Assembly: GCA_016868035.1 (NCBI GenBank)
Contig: VGID01000001.1
Coordinates: forward strand, 198,509 to 262,508
Length of the DNA stretch: 64,000 nucleotides
Source: Betaproteobacteria bacterium
GTDB lineage: Bacteria > Pseudomonadota > Gammaproteobacteria > Burkholderiales > SG8-41
Direction of reading: 5' to 3'
In this document: piece after piece, positions 56,326 to 64,000 of the stretch
Numbering within the stretch: position 1 is the first letter of the stretch
Layout: every line of letters starts with the position of its first letter
Position numbers and translations under genes: made by a program
The notes under the pieces: model-generated
What the model saw: only the letters and a program-made list of their open reading frames with translations
Databases searched by the model: none
What the model was told of the DNA's origin: nothing

Positions 56326-57420
56326 ATGAAAATCAAATCCGTCAAGGCAAGCGTGCACCGGTTCTCCGTGAAAGTGCCGCTGCTGAAAAAGCCGGTCGAG
56401 CGCAACGCCGTCGTTTGCGAGGTGAAAACGGACGACGGGCACAGCGGCTTCGGGCTGACCGGCGGTGCGTATTTGCCGCACGCGATCGTCACCGCGCTCG
56501 AAAAGGAGTTCCTGCCGGTCGTGAAGGACATGGATCCGCGCGAGACCGAGGCGATCCACGAGAAGGTGTGGTGGAAGCTGAACCAGCGCTCGATGACGGG
56601 CGTCGTCTCGAGCGCGCTCTCCGCCCTCGACATCGCGTGCTGGGACATCCACGGCAAGCACGCGGGACGCACGGTGGCGCAGCTGCTCGGCGGAGCGCGC
56701 GACTGGGCGCCGACGTACTGCACGTTCGGCTTCCCCGAATACGACCGCGACGAGCTCGTCGAGGCGGCGAAGCTGCAGGTGAAGAACGGCCACCGCCGCC
56801 TGAAGATGGTGGTCGGCGTGCACAAGGGCGGCTGGCAGGAGGACGCGCGGCGCGTGCGCGCGGTGCGCGACGCGGTCGGGCCCGATATCGAGCTCATGAT
56901 GGATGCGAACTACAAGTTCAACCCGGTGGACGCGCGGCAGCTCTGCCGCGCGCTCGAGGACTGCAACCTCACCTGGTTCGAGGAGCCGCTCTACCAGAAC
57001 GACACGCGCGCGATGGCCGACCTGCGCCGCCACACCAACATCCCGCTGTCGGCGGGCCAGAACGAGGGGCACCGCTGGCGACTGCGCGAGCTCGTGCTGC
57101 ACCAGGCGGTGGACATCCTGCAGCCCAACTGCTGCTACTGCGGCGGCTACACCGAGGCGCAGAAAGCGGGCCACCTCGCGCAGGCGTTCAACCTGCCGAT
57201 CGCGAACGGCGGGGGCTGGCCGCTGCACAACATGCACACCATGGCCGGGCTCATGAACGGCTGGCGCGTGGAGTTCCACCTCGACATGCAGGCGGTCGGC
57301 GAGATGATGTTCGTGAATCCCCCGCGGCCCAGGGACAACATCGTGAAGATCCCCGCCAGGCCGGGCCTGGGCCTGGAGCCGAACCGCGACGCGCTCAAGG
57401 ACACGTTGATGAAAGCGTGA
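56326..57420 (+). CDS. enolase-superfamily enzyme (mandelate racemase/muconate lactonizing family)
   Basis: 364 aa from MKIKSVK after a GAGGGAGG SD. Metal ligand context DANYKF...EEP...; KxK-like RRLKMVVG. Confidence 0.9.
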   Translation: MKIKSVKASVHRFSVKVPLLKKPVERNAVVCEVKTDDGHSGFGLTGGAYLPHAIVTALEKEFLPVVKDMDPRETEAIHEKVWWKLNQRSMTGVVSSALSALDIACWDIHGKHAGRTVAQLLGGARDWAPTYCTFGFPEYDRDELVEAAKLQVKNGHRRLKMVVGVHKGGWQEDARRVRAVRDAVGPDIELMMDANYKFNPVDARQLCRALEDCNLTWFEEPLYQNDTRAMADLRRHTNIPLSAGQNEGHRWRLRELVLHQAVDILQPNCCYCGGYTEAQKAGHLAQAFNLPIANGGGWPLHNMHTMAGLMNGWRVEFHLDMQAVGEMMFVNPPRPRDNIVKIPARPGLGLEPNRDALKDTLMKA

Positions 57421-57421
57421 G

Positions 57422-57548
57422 CCGTGATCGCTGATCCGTGACTCGAACGAATACGGTGAACCGTGATCGGTGAACGGCGAACGGTGAACGGAAGGTTGCG
57501 GCTGCGCCGGTGAGTTTACACCGTTCACTGTTCCCCGTTTACCGTTTA
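57422..57548. repeat. heptad-periodic inverted-arm element N (about 10 x CCGTGAT/TGAACGG-type, core, 4 x CCGTTCA/CCGTTTA)
   Basis: Starts 2 nt after the enolase-family stop. Confidence 0.85.
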
Positions 57549-57589
57549 CTCGCGCCCTCGCGGCGCGCGGCGTCCGGGACGCCGGCGCC

Positions 57590-57985
57590 ATGAGCGAGGG
57601 CGCGAGCCTGTGGGGGCTGTTCTGGTCGAGCTTTCTTGCGGCAACCCTGCTGCCCGGCGGCTCGGAGGCCGTTCTGTTCGCGGTGCTGAAGCTCCACCCC
57701 GAGCGCTACTGGGACGCGCTCGGGCTCGCCACGCTGGGCAACACGCTCGGGGGCATGTCCTCCTATCTAATCGGCCGCATCCTCCCGCAGAAACGGGACC
57801 TGCGCGGGCTCGCGGCCGTGCGCACGTACGGCACTCCGGTGCTCCTGCTCGCGTGGGTGCCGTTCATCGGCGACCCCCTGTGCGTCGCCGCGGGATGGCT
57901 GAGGCTCAATCCGTGGCTGTCCGCGCTCTACATCGCGCTCGGCAAGTTCACGCGCTACTGGGCGATCGCGGCCGCGGTTGCGTGA
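57590..57985 (+). CDS. yqaA: YqaA-family (DedA/SNARE-associated-like) inner membrane protein
   Basis: 131 aa, colinear with E. coli YqaA by recall (FLAATLLPGGSEAVL, GDPLCVAAGWLR). Confidence 0.82.
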   Translation: MSEGASLWGLFWSSFLAATLLPGGSEAVLFAVLKLHPERYWDALGLATLGNTLGGMSSYLIGRILPQKRDLRGLAAVRTYGTPVLLLAWVPFIGDPLCVAAGWLRLNPWLSALYIALGKFTRYWAIAAAVA

Positions 57986-58086
57986 TCGCTGCGCACGAGC
58001 GATCGTGGCCGCGCGAGGGCTTGTTGCTGCCACCGCGCCCGCGCTGACATAATCCCCTGCAGTCGTATTCGAGGCGAGGGAAATCC

Positions 58087-59670
58087 ATGCCGGTCGGAGA
58101 AGACGGCGCGGGCAGCGCCCTGGAGCCGTTTCAGTTCACCGACGCCGCCAGCTGCAGGGCGTGGCTCGGGCGGCTGGCCGGCGCGGACGCCGCCGTGCGC
58201 CACGCCTCGTTCGGGCGCCACGTACGGCAGGTGCCGGAGGCGCTGCTCGCGCCGGCGGTCAAGCTCGAAGTGCTCGAGACGATGCGCGAAGCGGTGCACG
58301 CGGCGCAGGCCGAGCACGCAAAGGACCACCGTGGCAGGGCGGTGCCGCTCAATCCCGGCCACCGCGCCGCGTGGCAGGAAACGGTCGGCCTGTGGCGCGC
58401 TCTGGCGAGCGCCTACGAGTCGCTGATCGCCGACATGGCGGAAACGGCGCCGGAACTCGCGACGCACGCGGCGCTGATCTGCCAGCGCGTGCTGCGCTAT
58501 ACGGGGCTGGCGATGGGAGAGTACAACCGCGCCTACCACAGCGTCCCGGAGGAACTGTGGCAGCAGCTGCACCGGCTGTACGTCTTCGCCGAGAACGCCG
58601 TCGTCGCAACCGCGCGCGTGCGCGACGGCGTGGAGCGCATCGCGGCGGAGACCACCTGCACCGCGGCGTACGTGCGGAGCCTGCTCGCGCAGCTTGCCCA
58701 ACCGGACGCGCTCACCATCCGCCAGATGGACATCGTGGACCGGTGGCTCGACCACTGGGAAGGTCTGGTAAGCCTGTCGCCCGAGCCCGCGCGCTCGAGC
58801 ACGGTCGCCGCGCTCGCGGTGGACCTCATGTCCCAGAAAGGCGCCGCCCTCGCCAAGCAGATGCCGGCGGCCGGAGCGCGCCACCTGAACCTCGATAATC
58901 TGGGCAGGACGCTGCGGCAGGCATCCGCTTCCCTCAAGAAGGGCCAGACACCGTGGCAAATCGGGCTCGGCGAGCTGCGCCCCGACGTATGCGAGATGAT
59001 GCTCGTGCTGCTGTACATCCAGTGGTGCGCCGCCGGCACGGGCCGCGTGGACGAGCGCACCGCCGCGAGCATGAGCGTGAGAATCTGCCCGGGGATCGCG
59101 TCCATCCACCACCAACTCACGGGGCGGCCTCTCCGGCAACCCGAGGGCGAGCCCGCGCTGCGCGTGGTGGGCAACGGCAGCATGCCCGAATGGGACGAAC
59201 CGCCTCCGGCTGCAACCGAGACCTGGTCCATCGTCAACAAGAGCGCCTCGGGATTCCTCGGCCTTTGCCGCAAGCCGGACGTCAACGCGCCCGTCGGTCA
59301 CCGGCAGCTCCTCGGGATGAAGGCGGGGCCGGAAAAAGGCATCTACGTCGGCATCGTCCAGCGGCTGAACGTGGACGCGAACGGCTCGGTCTGGGTCGGC
59401 CTGCGGCTCATCTCCGCAGGCCCGCAGCCGGCCGCGGTGCGCACTGCGGAAGAGAGGGCCGGCGATTCCGCCGGCGGAGCCTACGAACGCGCGCTGCTGC
59501 TGCCCGAAGATGCGGCGCGCAACGTGCCCACAACCCTAGTGCTGCCGCCGAAATGGTACCGGCCCGAGCGCGTGCTCGAAGTTCACACCGGCACGGGGCA
59601 ACGGATCCGGCTGCAGGCCCTGCTCGAGGAAGGTCCGAATTTCGAGCGCGCAACCTTCGCTCCCGCCTGA
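58087..59670 (+). CDS. conserved hypothetical protein, paralog A, with PilZ-like C-terminal signature (527 aa)
   Basis: Paralogous to 61616..63217 along the whole length. The C-terminal IVNKSASGF...VGIVQRL...VWVGLRL fits the (D/N)xSxxG beta-barrel pattern. Confidence 0.8.
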   Translation: MPVGEDGAGSALEPFQFTDAASCRAWLGRLAGADAAVRHASFGRHVRQVPEALLAPAVKLEVLETMREAVHAAQAEHAKDHRGRAVPLNPGHRAAWQETVGLWRALASAYESLIADMAETAPELATHAALICQRVLRYTGLAMGEYNRAYHSVPEELWQQLHRLYVFAENAVVATARVRDGVERIAAETTCTAAYVRSLLAQLAQPDALTIRQMDIVDRWLDHWEGLVSLSPEPARSSTVAALAVDLMSQKGAALAKQMPAAGARHLNLDNLGRTLRQASASLKKGQTPWQIGLGELRPDVCEMMLVLLYIQWCAAGTGRVDERTAASMSVRICPGIASIHHQLTGRPLRQPEGEPALRVVGNGSMPEWDEPPPAATETWSIVNKSASGFLGLCRKPDVNAPVGHRQLLGMKAGPEKGIYVGIVQRLNVDANGSVWVGLRLISAGPQPAAVRTAEERAGDSAGGAYERALLLPEDAARNVPTTLVLPPKWYRPERVLEVHTGTGQRIRLQALLEEGPNFERATFAPA

Positions 59671-59683
59671 AGCGGTCGCGAAG

Positions 59684-59790
59684 GCGTTCCAGGTTCAAGG
59701 TTCAAAGTTCAAGGTTCAAGGTTCAAGGTCTATAGTCCAGAGCCAAGACCCGGAACCTGGAACTTTGAACTCGGAACCCGGAACTTTTTT
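59684..59790. repeat. heptad-periodic inverted-arm element O (7 x AGGTTCA, core, 6 x CCCGGAA/CTTTGAA)
   Basis: Lies between paralog A and the DUF2817-like gene. The right arm contains the only available start codon (TTG 59765) of that gene. Confidence 0.88.
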
Positions 59791-60850
59791 TTCGCCGGAT
59801 TACGCCACCGCGCGCGACCGGTTCACGCGCGCCGCGCGGGCGGCGGGGGCCCGGACCGAGGCCATCGCGCTCGATGCGCGCGGCCCGGCGCGCGAGGCGC
59901 TGACCATCGATATCGCCTGGCTCGGCGCGCCGGACGCGGACCGCGTGTTGCTGCATACGAGCGGCATGCACGGCGTCGAGGCGTTCCCCGGGTGCGCGGT
60001 GCAGCTCGCGGCGCTATCCGAATTCGCGGCGCTCGCGCCGGGTTGCGCGCTGGTGCTCGCGCACGCGCTCAATCCATACGGCATGGCAAGGCTGCGGCGC
60101 ACGAACGAGAATAACGTGGACCTCAATCGCAACTTCCTGGCACCCGGCGAGAGCTACCGCGGCTCGCCGCCGCTCTACGCGCGCATCGATGCGGTGCTCA
60201 ATCCCGCGTCACCGCCGGGTTTCGATTTCTTCCGCCTCAAGGCTCTCGGTCTGGTGATGCGCTACGGCATGGGCGCGCTGCGGCAAGCGGTTGCGCAGGG
60301 CCAGTACGACTACCCGCGGGGCCTGTTTTATGGCGGCAGCATGCTCGAGCAAGGCCCCGCCTTGTTTCTCGGCTGGCTCGGGTGCAAACTCGCGCGCGTG
60401 CGCTACCTGTTCGTTCTCGACGCACACAGCGGGCTCGGCGCCTGGGGAGAGCAGACCTTGATTGGCGCGCCCGGCGTGAACGCCACGGGTGCGCTGGAGC
60501 TCGCGGGCGCGCTTGCGCACGCGGTGATCGACCCGGCCGACAGCCGCTCGCCCGCGTACACGATCCGCGGCGGCATGGCGGGTGCGCTGCGGCACACTCT
60601 GCCTGCGGCCCGCATGGACTTCGTGCTGCAGGAAATCGGGACCTGCTCCGCGATCGCGGTTCTTGGCGCCCTGCGCGAGGAGAACCGCTGGCACCACTAC
60701 GGCGCGGCAACGGTGGATCATCCCGCGAAGCTCGCGTTGCGCGAGGCGCTGTGCCCGGGTTCACCGGTCTGGCGCCGGCGCGTGCTCGCGCACGGCCGTG
60801 GCCTGCTCGAGCGCGCGGCGGTGTGGACGTGGAACTACGGTGAACGGTGA
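59765..60850 (+). CDS. DUF2817-like M14-type metallopeptidase-fold protein
   Basis: 361 aa. FSPDYATARDRF N-terminus and the SGMHGVEAF zinc-site-like motif. The start is uncertain. Confidence 0.78.
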   Translation: MNSEPGTFFSPDYATARDRFTRAARAAGARTEAIALDARGPAREALTIDIAWLGAPDADRVLLHTSGMHGVEAFPGCAVQLAALSEFAALAPGCALVLAHALNPYGMARLRRTNENNVDLNRNFLAPGESYRGSPPLYARIDAVLNPASPPGFDFFRLKALGLVMRYGMGALRQAVAQGQYDYPRGLFYGGSMLEQGPALFLGWLGCKLARVRYLFVLDAHSGLGAWGEQTLIGAPGVNATGALELAGALAHAVIDPADSRSPAYTIRGGMAGALRHTLPAARMDFVLQEIGTCSAIAVLGALREENRWHHYGAATVDHPAKLALREALCPGSPVWRRRVLAHGRGLLERAAVWTWNYGER

Positions 60851-60936
60851 ACGGTGAACGGTGAATGGCGAACGGCAAAATCCGACCCGCGCTCTTCTGG
60901 AAGTTTCCCGCTCGCTGCTCACCGCTTACCGCTCAC
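60838..60936. repeat. heptad-periodic inverted-arm element P (4 x CGGTGAA + 2 variants, conserved core, 4 x CGCTCAC/CGCTTAC)
   Basis: The second heptad supplies the stop codon of the DUF2817-like gene. Core AAAATCCGACCCGCGCTCTTCTGGAAGTTTCCCGC. Confidence 0.9.
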
Positions 60937-60948
60937 TAGAGGACCTTC

Positions 60949-61356
60949 ATGACGTGTGAACTGTGCGTGGAAACCGGCGGCACGCTCCTGTGGCGCGATG
61001 AGCGGTGCCGCGTGGTGCTCGTGCCCGAGCCGGGTTATCCGGGTTACTGCCGTGTGATCTGGAACGCGCACGTCAGGGAAATGACCGATCTCGGCGAGCA
61101 CGAGCGCGCCGCGATCATGCGCGTCGTCTTCGGAGTGGAGCGCGTGTTGCGCGACTTGTTCGCGCCGGAGAAGGTCAATCTGGCGAGCTTCGGCAACCTC
61201 ACCCCGCATCTGCACTGGCACGTGATCGCCCGCTTCCGCGACGACCCGCACTTTCCCGGCACGGTTTGGGGCGCGCGGCAGCGCGATCTCCACCCGCCTT
61301 CTGCCGGCGCTCATGCAGAGCAAATCGGAGCCGCGCTTGCCCGGCGGCTGGGATGA
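60949..61356 (+). CDS. HIT-family nucleotide hydrolase/transferase
   Basis: 135 aa with histidine triad PHLHWHVI. Confidence 0.88.
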   Translation: MTCELCVETGGTLLWRDERCRVVLVPEPGYPGYCRVIWNAHVREMTDLGEHERAAIMRVVFGVERVLRDLFAPEKVNLASFGNLTPHLHWHVIARFRDDPHFPGTVWGARQRDLHPPSAGAHAEQIGAALARRLG

Positions 61357-61427
61357 ACATATGTTGCCCCGCCAAGCGCGGAATACGTGATTTTTTTCCG
61401 TTGGCTCGGCGCGGTTTTTCCGGTGCG

Positions 61428-61443
61428 AGTGAACTAGTTCACA
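61428..61443. promoter_or_regulatory. CRP/FNR-family-like palindrome AGTGA-N6-TCACA
   Basis: The 14-bp perfect palindrome GTGAACTAGTTCAC lies about 175 nt upstream of the paralog B start. Confidence 0.35.
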
Positions 61444-61615
61444 TCCCTTGTTGCAACGGTACGGTTACCCTGAGATCGGAGCGGTGGGCGTTTCGTCCGC
61501 AACCGTCAGGATTTCATAGAAGAATCCGCGCGCGTGCGGCGATAATTGCGTCGGCCCGGCGTCATCGTCTCCGGGGATCGGTCAGGGCCTGCGCGAACGA
61601 CCATGAAAGCAGAAC

Positions 61616-63217
61616 ATGAGCATCCAGCCGCTCGAATCCTCTGAGCACATGCTGCGATTCACCGACAGCGCGAGTTGCAAGCGGTGGATCGACCTGCTGC
61701 CGCTCACCAACGTCCAGCAGGCGCAGCAAGTCCTGACCAGCCAGCTCGCCGCGCTCGATGCCACGGCGATGCCCGCGCTCGAGCGCCTGAAGATCCTGGA
61801 AGCGCTCAAGAGCCCCGTCCATTTCGTGCAGAGCGAGACGGCGAAGCGCTACGCGGGCAAGCCCCTGCCGCTGGAGCCCGTCGAGGAAGCCGCCTGGAGC
61901 GGCGTGATCGCGCTGTGGCAGGTGATGAGCAACAACTACCAGCACTGCCTCAAGGCCTACCGCGAAGGCGACCTCGCGATCGCGCCGCACGCGGCGCTCG
62001 TCGCGATGCGCTGCCTGCGCCAGCTGGGCCATCTCATGCTCGACTACTACCAGGTCTACCGGCAACCGCCGGGGATGGTGTGGCGCGCGCTGCACGAGCT
62101 GTATTCGTTCTCCGAAAGCCACGGTTTCGCCCGGATCCGGGTGCAGGACAGCTTCGCCCAGCAAGACCCGGTTTCGAGCTGCGCCGAGGTGTACGTGCAA
62201 GTGCTGCTCGCCCACCTTGCGGATCCGTTCTCCCTGTCGGCGCGGCAGTACGGCTACGTCGCGCGCTGGCTCGAGCGCTGGGCGATCCTGGTCGGCCTCC
62301 CGGCGCTGCCCCTGCCCCTGAGCCCGATCCCGCCGCTGGCGGTGGACCTCGCTAGTTCCACGGGCGTGATATTCGCCGGCGAAATCGAACCGCAAGCGCA
62401 GGCGCGCTATCTCGACCTCGAGCAGCTCTCGAAGACGCTGCGCCAGACCATCAACCTGCTCAAGCAGGGACAGACGCCGAGCCAGCTCGGGCTGGGCGAC
62501 GATGTGCGCCAGCCGGGATGCGAGAACCTGCTGATGCTGCTCTACGTGCAGTGGTGCCGCGCCGGCACCGCGCGCGGCGAGGAGCGCTCGGATAACGAGG
62601 AAGCGGCGGAGGTATGCCTCGGGCTGAGCGCCGCGCACGTGCATTCGAGCGGTGACCGCAACTCCCGTATTCCGGGGGAACTCACCTCGCGCGAGAAGCA
62701 GGACCTCGACACCTTCGGCTACCTCGCACGCGTGGAGCACGAGGCGGGCGGCAAATCCGATCACCCGCTCGCGCGTTGGCAGATCCTCAACCACAGCGCT
62801 TCCGGCTTCATGTGCCTGCTGCGCGGCCCCGAGGGCACGGAGCGCGTCAGCCACAACCAGCTGCTCGCCGTGCGCCGCGCCGGCGGCCGGCAGTTCCATC
62901 TCGGAATGGTACGCTGGCTGAAGACCGAGGAAACGGGAGGAATCCAATGCGGCGTGCGCCTGTTTCCGGGGACGCCGCAGGCGATCTCGGTGCGCCCGTC
63001 GAACTTCACGCCGGTCGGCGCCGGCCACTACGAGCGCGCCTTGCTGCTGCCCGAGGTGCCGGCTCCTGCGACACCCGCCACCCTGATCCTCCCGGCGGGC
63101 TGGTTTCAAAGCGGGCGCTTCGTCGAGGTGTATTCGGACCGCAAGCAGGTGGCGAAGCTGCTCAACCTGCTGGAAAAAGGCAGCGACTTCGACCGCGGAA
63201 CCATCGTCATCGTGTGA
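61616..63217 (+). CDS. conserved hypothetical protein, paralog B, with PilZ-like C-terminal signature (533 aa)
   Basis: Colinear with paralog A (FTDSASCKRW, LKQGQTPSQLGLG, LLYVQWCRAGT, ILNHSASGF, YERALLLPE). Confidence 0.8.
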   Translation: MSIQPLESSEHMLRFTDSASCKRWIDLLPLTNVQQAQQVLTSQLAALDATAMPALERLKILEALKSPVHFVQSETAKRYAGKPLPLEPVEEAAWSGVIALWQVMSNNYQHCLKAYREGDLAIAPHAALVAMRCLRQLGHLMLDYYQVYRQPPGMVWRALHELYSFSESHGFARIRVQDSFAQQDPVSSCAEVYVQVLLAHLADPFSLSARQYGYVARWLERWAILVGLPALPLPLSPIPPLAVDLASSTGVIFAGEIEPQAQARYLDLEQLSKTLRQTINLLKQGQTPSQLGLGDDVRQPGCENLLMLLYVQWCRAGTARGEERSDNEEAAEVCLGLSAAHVHSSGDRNSRIPGELTSREKQDLDTFGYLARVEHEAGGKSDHPLARWQILNHSASGFMCLLRGPEGTERVSHNQLLAVRRAGGRQFHLGMVRWLKTEETGGIQCGVRLFPGTPQAISVRPSNFTPVGAGHYERALLLPEVPAPATPATLILPAGWFQSGRFVEVYSDRKQVAKLLNLLEKGSDFDRGTIVIV

Positions 63218-63224
63218 CGAAGGT

Positions 63225-63358
63225 GGGTAAGCGGTAAGCGGTAAGCGGTAAGCGGTAAGCGGTAAGCGGTAAGCGGTAAGCGGTAAGCGGTAAGCGGTAA
63301 AATTGGACCGGGTTTCTCTACGAAGTTCCCTGCTCACCGCTTACTGCTTACTGCTTAA
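63225..63358. repeat. heptad-periodic inverted-arm element Q (11 heptads, 9 perfect CGGTAAG, conserved core, 4 x TGCTTAC-type)
   Basis: Lies between convergent paralog B and the histidine kinase gene. Core AAAATTGGACCGGGTTTCTCTACGAAGTTCCCTGC. Confidence 0.92.
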
Positions 63359-63369
63359 GGACTCTCTCC

Positions 63370-64000
63370 TCACCGGTTTTCCGCGCGGCGGCCCGCCCCG
63401 TTCGACCCGTCCTCCCGCTCTTCGCGCCTCTCGGGCGCAAGGATCCGTTCTTCCGGAAACACGGCGCTGAACGTGCTCCCGCGTCCGGGTTCGCTCGCGA
63501 TCTCGAGGCGCGCCTGGTGGCGGCTGAGCACGTGCTTGACGATCGCGAGCCCCAGCCCGGTGCCGCCGGTCTCGCGCGAACGGCCGCGGTCCACCCGATA
63601 GAAGCGCTCGGTGATGCGTGCGAGGTGCTGCTGCTCGATCCCGATCCCCGTGTCGCGCACGCTGAACAGCGCGTGGCCGCCGCGGCGCTGCCAGCTGATG
63701 ACGACCTCTCCGCCGTCCGGGGTATAGCGGATCGCGTTGGTGACGAGGTTGCCGAACGCGCTGCGCAGCTCCTCTTCGCTCCCCAGGAGCCAGGTGCCGC
63801 CCGCCGAATCGAGCAGCACGCGGTGCCGGCCGGCCGACAACGCCAGCGCCTCCCGGTACAGCGCGTGCGTGAGCCCCGGCACGTCCACGGGCTCGGCCTG
63901 CAGCGGGTAGCGTGCGCTCTCCAGGCGCGAGAGCATCAGCAAATCTTCCACGAGCCGCTGCATGCGCCGCGTCTGGTCCACCATCAGCGGCAGCGACCGT
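63370..64000 (-). CDS. sensor histidine kinase, C-terminal part (PhoR-like); 5' end lies beyond the window
   Basis: HisKA end (LVEDLLMLSRLE) and HATPase_c N, G1 and G2 boxes (NLVTNAIRY, DTGIGI, GGTGLGLAIV). The frame stays open to position 64000. Confidence 0.85.
   Translation of the reverse strand, partial: RSLPLMVDQTRRMQRLVEDLLMLSRLESARYPLQAEPVDVPGLTHALYREALALSAGRHRVLLDSAGGTWLLGSEEELRSAFGNLVTNAIRYTPDGGEVVISWQRRGGHALFSVRDTGIGIEQQHLARITERFYRVDRGRSRETGGTGLGLAIVKHVLSRHQARLEIASEPGRGSTFSAVFPEERILAPERREEREDGSNGAGRRAENR

What the first reader, a model, noticed from the sequence alone, without database searches (positions are those of the whole stretch)
58087..63217. Two diverged paralogs of about 530 aa with a PilZ-like C-terminus flank DUF2817-like and HIT genes
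The proteins at 58087-59670 and 61616-63217 are colinear. They are about 30% identical in the N-terminal part and rise to about 60% around LKxGQTPxQxGLG...LLYxQWCxAGT. Both end in a segment matching the PilZ beta-barrel pattern (IVNKSASGF / ILNHSASGF = (D/N)xSxxG, followed by alternating hydrophobic strands and YERALLLPE). A clear upstream RxxxR motif is not evident. The N-terminal helical domain of about 330 aa matches nothing I recognise. They may be a pair of c-di-GMP-effector-like proteins of unknown output.
Basis: partly seen in the sequence, partly recalled or inferred. Interest (0 to 1): 0.6.

Follow-up and report, generated by a model that had tools for sequence, protein, structure and literature searches.

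The report
Two FimW-type c-di-GMP sensor paralogs
The two ~530-residue genes are real, old duplicates of FimW, a sensor of the bacterial signal c-di-GMP that is known from Pseudomonas aeruginosa to switch on type IV pili, so they are uncharacterised members of a described family and not a new kind of protein.

Summary
A (58087-59670) and B (61616-63217) are colinear paralogs, 35% identical overall and 56-58% identical around the QWCxAGT block.

- The "missing" RxxxR motif is present and invariant (A RVDER, B RGEER). A ~60-70-residue insert separates it from N-x-S-x-x-G.
- PF07238 does not hit either protein. The C-terminal model's best PDB matches are nevertheless PilZ receptors (MrkH, MotI, PP4397, BcsA).
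- The whole protein belongs to the FimW family. Near-identical database proteins carry PF27104 + PF27125, which earlier notes of this scan name FimW_N and FimW_C.

My own test of the FimW link: in 4 of 5 complete gammaproteobacterial genomes, the best family match sits directly upstream of a REC-PAS-GGDEF-EAL (FimX-type) gene. That protein aligns full length with A/B (hhalign 99.8%).

B is the slowly evolving FimW ortholog and A is an old, faster-evolving duplicate. Two more distant paralogs lie elsewhere in the genome.

The five-gene neighbourhood is not a conserved unit; only HIT-B recurs. The genome has type IV pilus genes, 11 GGDEF and 8 EAL domains, and no FimX.

This scan has already met FimW paralog sets in other genomes. 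Verdict: new members of a known kind, of modest interest.

The parts
57590..57985 (+). Small VTT/DedA-type (yqaA-like) membrane protein gene. It is the conserved left border of the variable slot.
   Evidence: PF09335 hit E 7.6e-6, 26.8 bits, below the cut-off of 33.9. tblastn finds it upstream in most related loci.
58087..59670 (+). Paralog A, a FimW-family protein of 527 aa: helical N-terminal domain plus a split PilZ-like C-terminal domain. It is the faster-evolving duplicate.
   Evidence: a 94% identical cluster representative carries PF27125 + PF27104; monophyletic A clade, SH-aLRT 99; second-best match to FimX-linked FimW-type proteins.
59044..59058 (+). A: RxxxR motif (RVDER, residues 320-324)
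   Evidence: Both arginines are invariant in alignment A2.
59236..59253 (+). A: [D/N]xSxxG motif (NKSASG, residues 384-389)
59765..60850 (+). DUF2817 (M14-like) gene, a variable passenger of the slot
   Evidence: PF10994 E 1.5e-75. Present in only some related loci.
60949..61356 (+). HIT-family nucleotide hydrolase/transferase gene, the most frequent upstream neighbour of B
   Evidence: PF01230 E 3e-16. The HIT-B adjacency recurs in loci whose B orthologs are 46-75% identical, but not in Gallionella.
61429..61442 (.). Perfect 14-bp palindrome GTGA-N6-TCAC (CRP/FNR-type core) 187 nt upstream of B, probably an operator of B's own promoter region
   Evidence: The block is conserved at 80% or more in 41 aligned upstream regions, and exact copies occur at the same distance in several loci.
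61616..63217 (+). Paralog B, a FimW-family protein of 533 aa and the likely FimW ortholog. Layout: all-alpha domain (~18-225), small alpha/beta linker (241-283), conserved helix ending in RxxxR, PilZ-like barrel with a 50-residue insert, and an extra 5-stranded C-terminal subdomain (473-532).
   Evidence: best match of all four FimX-linked FimW-type proteins, E 1e-35 to 1e-38.
62573..62587 (+). B: RxxxR motif (RGEER, residues 320-324)
62789..62806 (+). B: [D/N]xSxxG motif (NHSASG, residues 392-397)

Best explanation
A and B are cytoplasmic c-di-GMP receptors of the FimW family. Each has an all-helical N-terminal domain of about 285 residues (the FimW N-terminal domain). The C-terminal domain has a divergent PilZ beta-barrel at its core. 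The RxxxR motif sits at the end of the conserved LLYxQWCxAGT helix. After one strand and a variable two-helix insert of about 50 residues, the [D/N]xSxxG motif follows. A conserved five-stranded subdomain (YERALLLPE ... GxDFxR) closes the protein. By analogy with P. aeruginosa FimW, a rise in c-di-GMP would be bound by the two motifs, drive dimerisation and recruitment to the cell pole, and stimulate type IV pilus assembly. B is the slowly evolving ortholog of FimW and has its own conserved promoter region with a CRP/FNR-type palindrome. A is an old, faster-evolving duplicate, inserted in some lineages into a variable slot between a yqaA-like gene and B, and it has kept both ligand motifs. Shown here: the paralogy, family membership, motif conservation, PilZ-like fold prediction, and presence of pilus and c-di-GMP turnover genes. 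Inferred: ligand binding, dimerisation, polar recruitment and the pilus output.
For: Paralogy. Family:
- Near-identical database proteins carry PF27125 + PF27104.
- The A1 profile matches 105 of 301 class-level genomes.
- In 4 of 5 complete genomes the best match lies directly upstream, on the same strand, of a ~700-aa EAL protein. In the two loci annotated that protein is REC-PAS-GGDEF-EAL, and one of them shows the order psd - family gene - FimX-type gene.
- That FimW-type protein aligns with A1 over 508 columns, hhalign probability 99.84%, E 3.4e-30, with both motifs in register.
- B is the best own-genome match of all four FimX-linked proteins.

Motifs: R320, R324 and G397 are invariant in A1 (N392 too), S394 in A2; all hold in 90% or more of both alignments.

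Fold: the models have pLDDT 84.6 and 82.9. The C-terminal model's top PDB hits are MrkH (E 2.1e-3, prob 0.99), MotI/DgrA, PP4397 with c-di-GMP, and BcsA (prob 0.98-0.99).

Bridge to PilZ: A1 against the C/D-type alignment gives 99.9%, E 1.6e-32. P0395, a relative of paralog C (BLASTP 8e-18), has a PF07238 hit of 26.2 bits, above the 22.5 cut-off.

Context: the genome has 11 GGDEF and 8 EAL domains but only 1 canonical PilZ, and it has PilB, PilT/PilU and PilM. PilM is found in 102 of 105 family-positive genomes against 128 of 195 family-negative genomes of the same sample.

Literature on FimW function: PMC11656802, PMC10212136, PMC12564702.
Against: - PF07238 does not hit A or B, even at E = 1.
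- Profile-profile comparison with a PilZ alignment puts the motif in the right register but only at 7-16% probability.
- No Foldseek E-value passes 1e-3, and TM-scores are 0.24-0.31.
- The hydrophobic 'h' of [D/N]hSxxG, stressed as conserved by Galperin and Chou (bioRxiv 10.1101/814665), is polar here (K, H, Q or E).
- The two motifs are 60-68 residues apart instead of 20-30.
- No FimX-type gene is adjacent, and no full-length FimX match exists in this 98%-complete genome.
- I could not compare A/B directly with PA4958. The names FimW_N and FimW_C for PF27104 and PF27125 come from earlier AI notes, because the local Pfam lacks these models.
- Four paralogs in one genome argue against a single shared output.
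Confidence: 0.6

Rival explanations
1. A and B are FimW-family c-di-GMP receptors, but their output here is not type IV pili. In a lineage without FimX and with four family paralogs, the helical N-terminal domains would have been retargeted to other partners. A in particular would have a new function.
For: No FimX-type gene lies next to any paralog, and there is no full-length FimX match in the genome. The genome has four paralogs in unrelated contexts: MFS transporter, flavoprotein disulfide reductase, HIT. A evolves faster (about 50% identity between A orthologs against about 72% for B in the same genomes) and forms its own old clade. Multiple copies per genome are common in the class.
Against: B is the reciprocal-best counterpart of the FimX-linked genes. 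The pilus machinery is present. The family is almost confined to PilM-positive genomes.
Confidence: 0.25
2. The C-terminal domain is a degenerate PilZ-like barrel that no longer binds c-di-GMP, as in the PilZ protein of type IV pili or XCC6012. The proteins would then act as ligand-independent scaffolds.
For: No PF07238 hit. The residue at the conserved hydrophobic position of [D/N]hSxxG is polar. The insert between the motifs is long. Structural matches are weak. A few orthologs (L072, L032, L041) have lost the RxxxR pattern.
Against: Both arginines, and the N/D, S and G positions, are invariant or nearly so across clades down to about 30% identity, including Gallionella. That is hard to explain without a ligand. 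Reviews report FimW as c-di-GMP binding (PMC11656802, PMC10212136). PA2989-type tPilZ proteins with a comparable two-helix insert bind c-di-GMP (bioRxiv 10.1101/814665).
Confidence: 0.1
3. B works with the upstream HIT protein as a nucleotide-sensing pair. B would sense a dinucleotide or nucleotide other than c-di-GMP that the HIT enzyme makes or degrades.
For: The HIT-B adjacency recurs in loci whose B orthologs are only 46-75% identical. HIT enzymes act on nucleotide conjugates (family knowledge).
Against: A conserved spacer of about 260 nt with its own operator-like palindrome separates HIT from B, so co-transcription is doubtful. HIT is missing next to B in many loci and in all Gallionella orthologs. 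FimX-linked family members have psd or radical-SAM genes upstream instead. All HIT-B loci may belong to one uncultured Burkholderiales group, so the adjacency may simply be inherited gene order.
Confidence: 0.05

Closest known systems
FimW (PA4958) of Pseudomonas aeruginosa; Pfam PF27104 and PF27125
   Same: The same two Pfam accessions are precomputed on 94-96% identical database proteins. A/B show full-length colinear homology to FimW-type genes that sit next to FimX-type genes in four gammaproteobacterial families. They have a PilZ-type c-di-GMP signature, and the genome has type IV pili.
   Different: No fimX neighbour or FimX ortholog. There are two copies 2 kb apart plus two distant copies in the same genome. 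Identity to the FimX-linked proteins is only 23-27%. A/B are shorter (527-533 aa against 545-604 aa). B's conserved neighbour is a HIT gene. No direct comparison with the PA4958 sequence was possible.
Canonical PilZ domain (PF07238; for example MapZ, the YcgR C-terminal domain, the BcsA C-terminal domain)
   Same: [quoted passage not shown] A beta-barrel is predicted. PilZ receptors are the top structural matches.
   Different: No HMM hit. The motifs are 60-68 residues apart because of an insert. The 'h' residue is polar. There is no C-terminal amphipathic helix; an extra five-stranded subdomain takes its place.
Tetramer-forming tPilZ (PF16823; XCC6012, PA2989)
   Same: A PilZ barrel interrupted by an insert of roughly 50-60 residues that forms two helices. 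XCC6012 (3ph1/3rqa) appears among the structural matches (prob 0.57-0.66).
   Different: No PF16823 hit. tPilZ proteins are small, stand-alone and single-copy (bioRxiv 10.1101/814665). A and B have a 285-residue helical N-terminal domain and occur in several copies.
Two-barrel PilZ receptors (YcgR, MotI/DgrA, PP4397, MrkH)
   Same: They are the best Foldseek matches over 183-250 aligned columns, consistent with two beta subdomains in the C-terminal half.
   Different: In those proteins the extra barrel precedes the PilZ domain, and RxxxR lies in the inter-domain linker. Here the extra beta subdomain follows the barrel and a helical domain precedes it. RMSD is 10-16 A.

Membership tests
FimW family (PF27104 + PF27125) | Hits to both family HMMs | tested here: inconclusive
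   Cluster representatives 96% (B) and 94% (A) identical carry PF27125.1 + PF27104.1 as precomputed domains, as do all listed orthologs but one partial sequence. The local Pfam copy lacks these models, so A and B were not scanned directly. The family names come from earlier AI notes.
FimW family (PF27104 + PF27125) | Full-length homology to bona fide FimW, recognised here by its position next to fimX | tested here: met
   In 4 of 5 complete genomes the best family match lies directly upstream of a ~700-aa EAL gene that is REC-PAS-GGDEF-EAL where annotated. hhalign of A1 against one such protein gives 99.84%, E 3.4e-30, over 508 columns. BLASTP to B gives E 1e-35 to 1e-38 and to A 1e-12 to 1e-21. 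PA4958 itself was not available for comparison.
FimW family (PF27104 + PF27125) | Gene linkage with fimX | tested here: not met
   None of the four paralogs lies near an EAL gene. There is no full-length FimX-type match in the genome.
FimW family (PF27104 + PF27125) | c-di-GMP binding, dimerisation and polar recruitment, promotion of type IV pili | not testable with these tools
   Known for P. aeruginosa FimW only from the literature (PMC10212136, PMC11656802). The genome does encode PilB, PilT/U and PilM.
PilZ domain (PF07238) | RxxxR motif | tested here: met
   A RVDER and B RGEER, both at residues 320-324. Both arginines are invariant in A1 and A2.
PilZ domain (PF07238) | [D/N]hSxxG motif with hydrophobic h | tested here: inconclusive
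   N/D, S and G are invariant or conserved in at least 90% of sequences. The h position is K, H, Q or E in the A/B clades, but V or I in paralog C and in P0395.
PilZ domain (PF07238) | Significant match to the family HMM or profile | tested here: not met
   hmmscan finds no family at E <= 1 for A or B. hhalign against a 19-sequence PilZ alignment gives 7% (A/B C-terminus) and 16% (C/D type), with the motif in the correct register. Only the distant relative P0395 passes the cut-off (26.2 against 22.5 bits).
PilZ domain (PF07238) | Six-stranded beta-barrel fold | tested here: inconclusive
   The AF2 C-terminal model has pLDDT 82.9. Seven of the top 7 and ten of the top 16 Foldseek PDB hits are PilZ proteins with probabilities of 0.51-0.99. 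The best E-value is 2.1e-3 and TM-scores are at most 0.31. Model coordinates could not be inspected.
tPilZ (PF16823) | HMM hit; small stand-alone single-copy protein with a tetramerising helix pair | tested here: not met
   No PF16823 hit. A and B are multidomain proteins of about 530 aa, with four copies per genome.

The most novel reading that the evidence does not exclude
In this FimX-less, uncultured Burkholderiales lineage the FimW family has diversified into four paralogs. Because FimW is reported to dimerise on c-di-GMP binding, the nearby A/B pair could form a c-di-GMP-dependent heterodimer that splits sensing from output. At least some paralogs could couple c-di-GMP to targets other than type IV pili. 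That would make FimW_N a general adaptor domain and not a pilus-specific one.
Probability: 0.15. Interest if true: 0.5.

Novelty: new member of a known kind. Interest (0 to 1): 0.28.

Why it matters
FimW is one of the less understood c-di-GMP effectors. Its partner and mechanism at the pilus machine are unknown (PMC11656802), and no solved structure was found by sequence search of the PDB.

This locus adds three useful comparative facts:
- The family is large. The profile finds about 5000 clusters at 50% identity, and 105 of 301 sampled class-level genomes have a match.
- Its ligand signature is a PilZ motif pair split by an insert, which explains why standard PilZ models miss it.
- It occurs without FimX and in multiple old paralogs.

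This helps annotation: these genes are mostly labelled "hypothetical". It also offers natural sequence variation for structure-function work. It does not reveal a new kind of system.

Tried and rejected
- Pfam and NCBIfam scans of A and B gave no hit. PADLOC gave none.
- Sequence searches of the PDB with A, B and the A1 profile gave only chance-level matches.
- Foldseek with the full-length model gave helical-repeat and Cry-toxin noise, with MrkH at only E 0.08. The C-terminal model was needed to bring out the PilZ matches.
- tblastn of B and C against PLSDB plasmids gave no match.
- An Rfam scan of 57000-64000 gave nothing credible in the HIT-B spacer. No sigma-70 promoter match was found.
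- Looking up PF27125 and PF27104 by name in the local Pfam and in the paper library failed.
- The primary FimW paper (Laventie et al. 2019, doi 10.1016/j.chom.2018.11.008) is not held, so FimW's properties are cited from reviews.
- I considered a five-gene operon (yqaA, A, DUF2817, HIT, B) and rejected it. A, DUF2817 and HIT are each present or absent independently between the yqaA-like gene and B in related loci.
- I considered a functional link to the convergent downstream phoR-phoB pair and rejected it. The genes converge, and the arrangement looks like inherited gene order.
- The labels in my first tree script duplicated some places under both A and B names. I use only the clade structure, not the label counts.
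Full report
**What is there.** The window carries two intact plus-strand ORFs, A (58087-59670, 527 aa) and B (61616-63217, 533 aa). BLASTP aligns them end to end at 35% identity, E = 9e-99. The global score lies 42 sd above shuffled controls. Identity varies by region (B numbering): 27-33% over the first 200 residues, 56-58% over 266-325, 21% in a variable stretch at 326-385, and 34-43% in the C-terminal beta region. The genes between them are DUF2817 (PF10994, E 1.5e-75) and HIT (PF01230, E 3e-16). The small upstream ORF gives only a sub-threshold VTT/DedA-type hit.

**Conservation.** Both genes have hundreds of relatives, mostly in uncultured Betaproteobacteria/Burkholderiales assemblies. 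B orthologs are 65-96% identical and A orthologs 47-56%. The same contigs often hold one of each. A profile of 42 sequences (A1) finds 4969 clusters at 50% identity with E <= 1e-3, and it matches 105 of 301 evenly sampled genomes of the class. In A1 the invariant positions include R320, R324, N392 and G397, and S394 is conserved in at least 90% of sequences. In a 42-sequence alignment of the C-terminal 240 residues, which also spans Gallionella orthologs of only about 30% identity, R25, R29, S99 and G102 are invariant and N97 nearly so. These are the two arginines and the S and G of the PilZ signature.

**Is the C-terminus a PilZ domain?** By HMM it is not. Pfam PF07238 does not hit A or B even at E = 1, and a profile search of PDB sequences finds nothing. 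Profile-profile comparison with a PilZ alignment built from 19 Burkholderiales PilZ domains places NxSxxG on DxSxxG and aligns the following strands, but at low probability: 7% for A/B and 16% for the more canonical C/D-type paralogs.

The structure predictions say more.
- The full-length B model (pLDDT 84.6, pTM 0.82) has helices from 18 to 225 and a small alpha/beta element at 241-283. A conserved helix at 301-321 ends in RxxxR and is followed by one strand (329-335).
- Next come a low-confidence two-helix insert (336-385) and then eleven strands (386-532).
- Searched whole, the model gives only noise, with MrkH at E 0.08.
- A separate model of residues 296-533 (pLDDT 82.9) gives PilZ receptors as its seven best PDB matches. 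These are MrkH (E 2.1e-3, prob 0.99), MrkH with c-di-GMP, MotI/DgrA (two chains), PP4397 with c-di-GMP, apo-MrkH and BcsA (prob 0.99). Further BcsA chains and the tetrameric PilZ XCC6012 follow.
- No E-value passes 1e-3 and TM-scores stay at or below 0.31. I read this as a divergent PilZ-type barrel plus an extra beta subdomain, and not as a proven fold assignment.

A sequence bridge supports the same reading. The genome has two more family members: C (P0246, contig 35) and D (P0247, contig 20). A1 aligns full length with the C/D-type alignment at 99.9%, E 1.6e-32, with motifs in register. P0395, a 515-aa relative of C from another genome of the order (BLASTP 8e-18; 93.7% against A1), has a genuine PF07238 hit of 26.2 bits against a 22.5 cut-off.

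Three deviations from canonical PilZ remain:
- The motifs are 60-68 residues apart instead of 20-30.
- The hydrophobic 'h' of [D/N]hSxxG, which Galperin and Chou stress as conserved (bioRxiv 10.1101/814665), is K, H, Q or E here.
- A five-stranded subdomain with the conserved YERALLLPE and GxDFxR blocks replaces the usual C-terminal helix.

The two-helix insert resembles that of tPilZ proteins, some of which bind c-di-GMP (same preprint), but PF16823 does not hit.

**Which family?** All database relatives carry the precomputed Pfam accessions PF27125 and PF27104. The C type carries only PF27104. The local Pfam copy lacks these models. Earlier notes of this scan on other genomes name them FimW_C and FimW_N after FimW (PA4958) of P. 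aeruginosa. I treated this as a lead and tested it by gene order, because a review states that FimX is encoded with FimW (PMC11656802).
- In 4 of 5 complete genomes from different families of the class, the best A1 match is followed directly, on the same strand, by a ~700-aa EAL protein. With 20-50 EAL genes per 3-Mb genome, I estimate the chance of this at about 1-2% per genome.
- I annotated two of these loci. One reads psd - family gene (604 aa) - REC-PAS-GGDEF-EAL (691 aa). The other reads radical-SAM gene - family gene (545 aa) - REC-PAS-GGDEF-EAL (694 aa). REC-PAS-GGDEF-EAL is, from my own knowledge, the FimX architecture.
- The 604-aa protein aligns with A1 over 508 columns at 99.84% probability, E 3.4e-30, with RxxxR on RxxxR and DxSxxG on NxSxxG.
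- All four FimX-linked proteins hit B best (E 1e-35 to 1e-38, 23-27% identity, full length), A second (1e-12 to 1e-21), and C and D weakly.

So A and B belong to the FimW family, and B is the ortholog-like copy. I could not obtain PA4958 itself, so the last link rests on synteny and on the precomputed accessions.

**What FimW does** (from reviews only; the primary paper is not held). [quoted passage not shown] It accumulates at the poles in a c-di-GMP-dependent way after surface contact (PMC11656802). c-di-GMP is said to cause its dimerisation, and it stimulates type IV pilus assembly (PMC10212136). It is listed among the PilZ-domain effectors of P. aeruginosa (PMC12564702). Its partner and mechanism are unknown. 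A 2026 preprint reports no visible pili in a fimW mutant, which nevertheless twitched, and notes that this conflicts with earlier reports.

**Context in this genome.** The assembly is 3.9 Mb and 98% complete.
- It has 11 GGDEF and 8 EAL domains but one canonical PilZ hit.
- It has PilB-type, PilT/PilU-type and PilM genes.
- No paralog lies next to an EAL gene, and no full-length FimX-type protein is found.
- In the 300-genome sample, PilM is found in 102 of 105 family-positive genomes and in 128 of 195 family-negative ones. This fits a pilus link, but genome size and relatedness confound it.

**The neighbourhood** (77 related loci).
- B is the anchor.
- A HIT gene precedes B in most loci whose B is 46-75% identical.
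- A is present in about 20 loci, always between the yqaA-like gene and HIT/B.
- DUF2817 comes and goes independently.
- Six other loci (L009, L014, L016, L020, L040, L048) show A-DUF2817-HIT-B in order as in the window, and five of them also show the yqaA-like gene.
- Gallionella orthologs have neither HIT nor A.
- Downstream, on the other strand, lie phoR and phoB. This convergent arrangement persists even in some Gallionella loci and looks like inherited gene order.
- HIT and B are separated by about 260 nt, which contain conserved blocks. One is the perfect palindrome GTGAACTAGTTCAC (61429-61442), whose core is conserved at 80% or more across 41 loci. B therefore probably has its own regulated promoter, and the HIT adjacency is weak evidence for a joint function.

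**History of the pair.** In a tree rooted with C and D, the true A sequences form one clade (SH-aLRT 99). It is separate from the main B clade, from a second B clade (50-55% identity to window B), and from the Gallionella clade, and the base is unresolved. A is thus an old duplicate with a faster rate, not a recent tandem copy. It keeps both ligand motifs.

**Verdict.** The family is already described, and this scan has met it before in other genomes. I rate family membership at about 0.9, c-di-GMP binding at about 0.75, and a type IV pilus output for B at about 0.45. What is mildly new is the FimX-less context, the four old paralogs, the HIT-B adjacency, and the description of the split PilZ signature that standard models miss.

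Noticed in passing
L003:1462-3012 (G000 contig 35) and L004:1456-3090 (G000 contig 20): The same genome holds two more distant FimW-family paralogs, C (516 aa) and D (544 aa). C has RGSER and a canonical NVSDGG. D has RQGPR but DAGAWG, with the serine lost. C sits after an ATG22/MFS transporter gene and D after a pyridine nucleotide-disulfide oxidoreductase gene. C-type relatives carry only PF27104.
   Followed up: partly
Two further conserved blocks flank it (AACGTGA...TTCC upstream, GGTTCGGCTAGCCT downstream). This suggests a conserved CRP/FNR-family operator for the FimW ortholog.
   Followed up: partly
L083:379-2658 (G000:C1, just past the window end; window 63370-64000 is its start): A phoR (PhoR/PAS/HisKA/HATPase) and phoB pair converges on B. 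The B / phoR arrangement persists in Gallionella loci whose B is only about 35% identical.
   Followed up: partly
L113:1148-2695 (G016 contig 7): A 515-aa family relative has RRHER and EDISQSG and a PF07238 hit above the cut-off. It is the only member found here that the standard PilZ model recognises.
   Followed up: yes
L009, L019, L020, L022, L027, L046, L055, L058, L059, L063, L065 (record titles): Several contigs with clearly betaproteobacterial gene content and synteny are titled 'uncultured Streptomycetaceae', 'Streptomyces sp.', 'Chitinophaga pinensis' or 'Bordetella parapertussis' MAGs. The taxonomic labels of these public records look wrong.
   Followed up: no
L005:8886-10265: In this locus the B ortholog's frame runs on for about 220 extra codons past the usual stop, into the antisense of phoR. 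This is probably a sequencing or assembly error or a lost stop.
   Followed up: no
G000:C1:287596-289529 (about 25 kb beyond the window end): A tandem PilT/PilU-type ATPase pair lies on the same contig as A and B.
   Followed up: no
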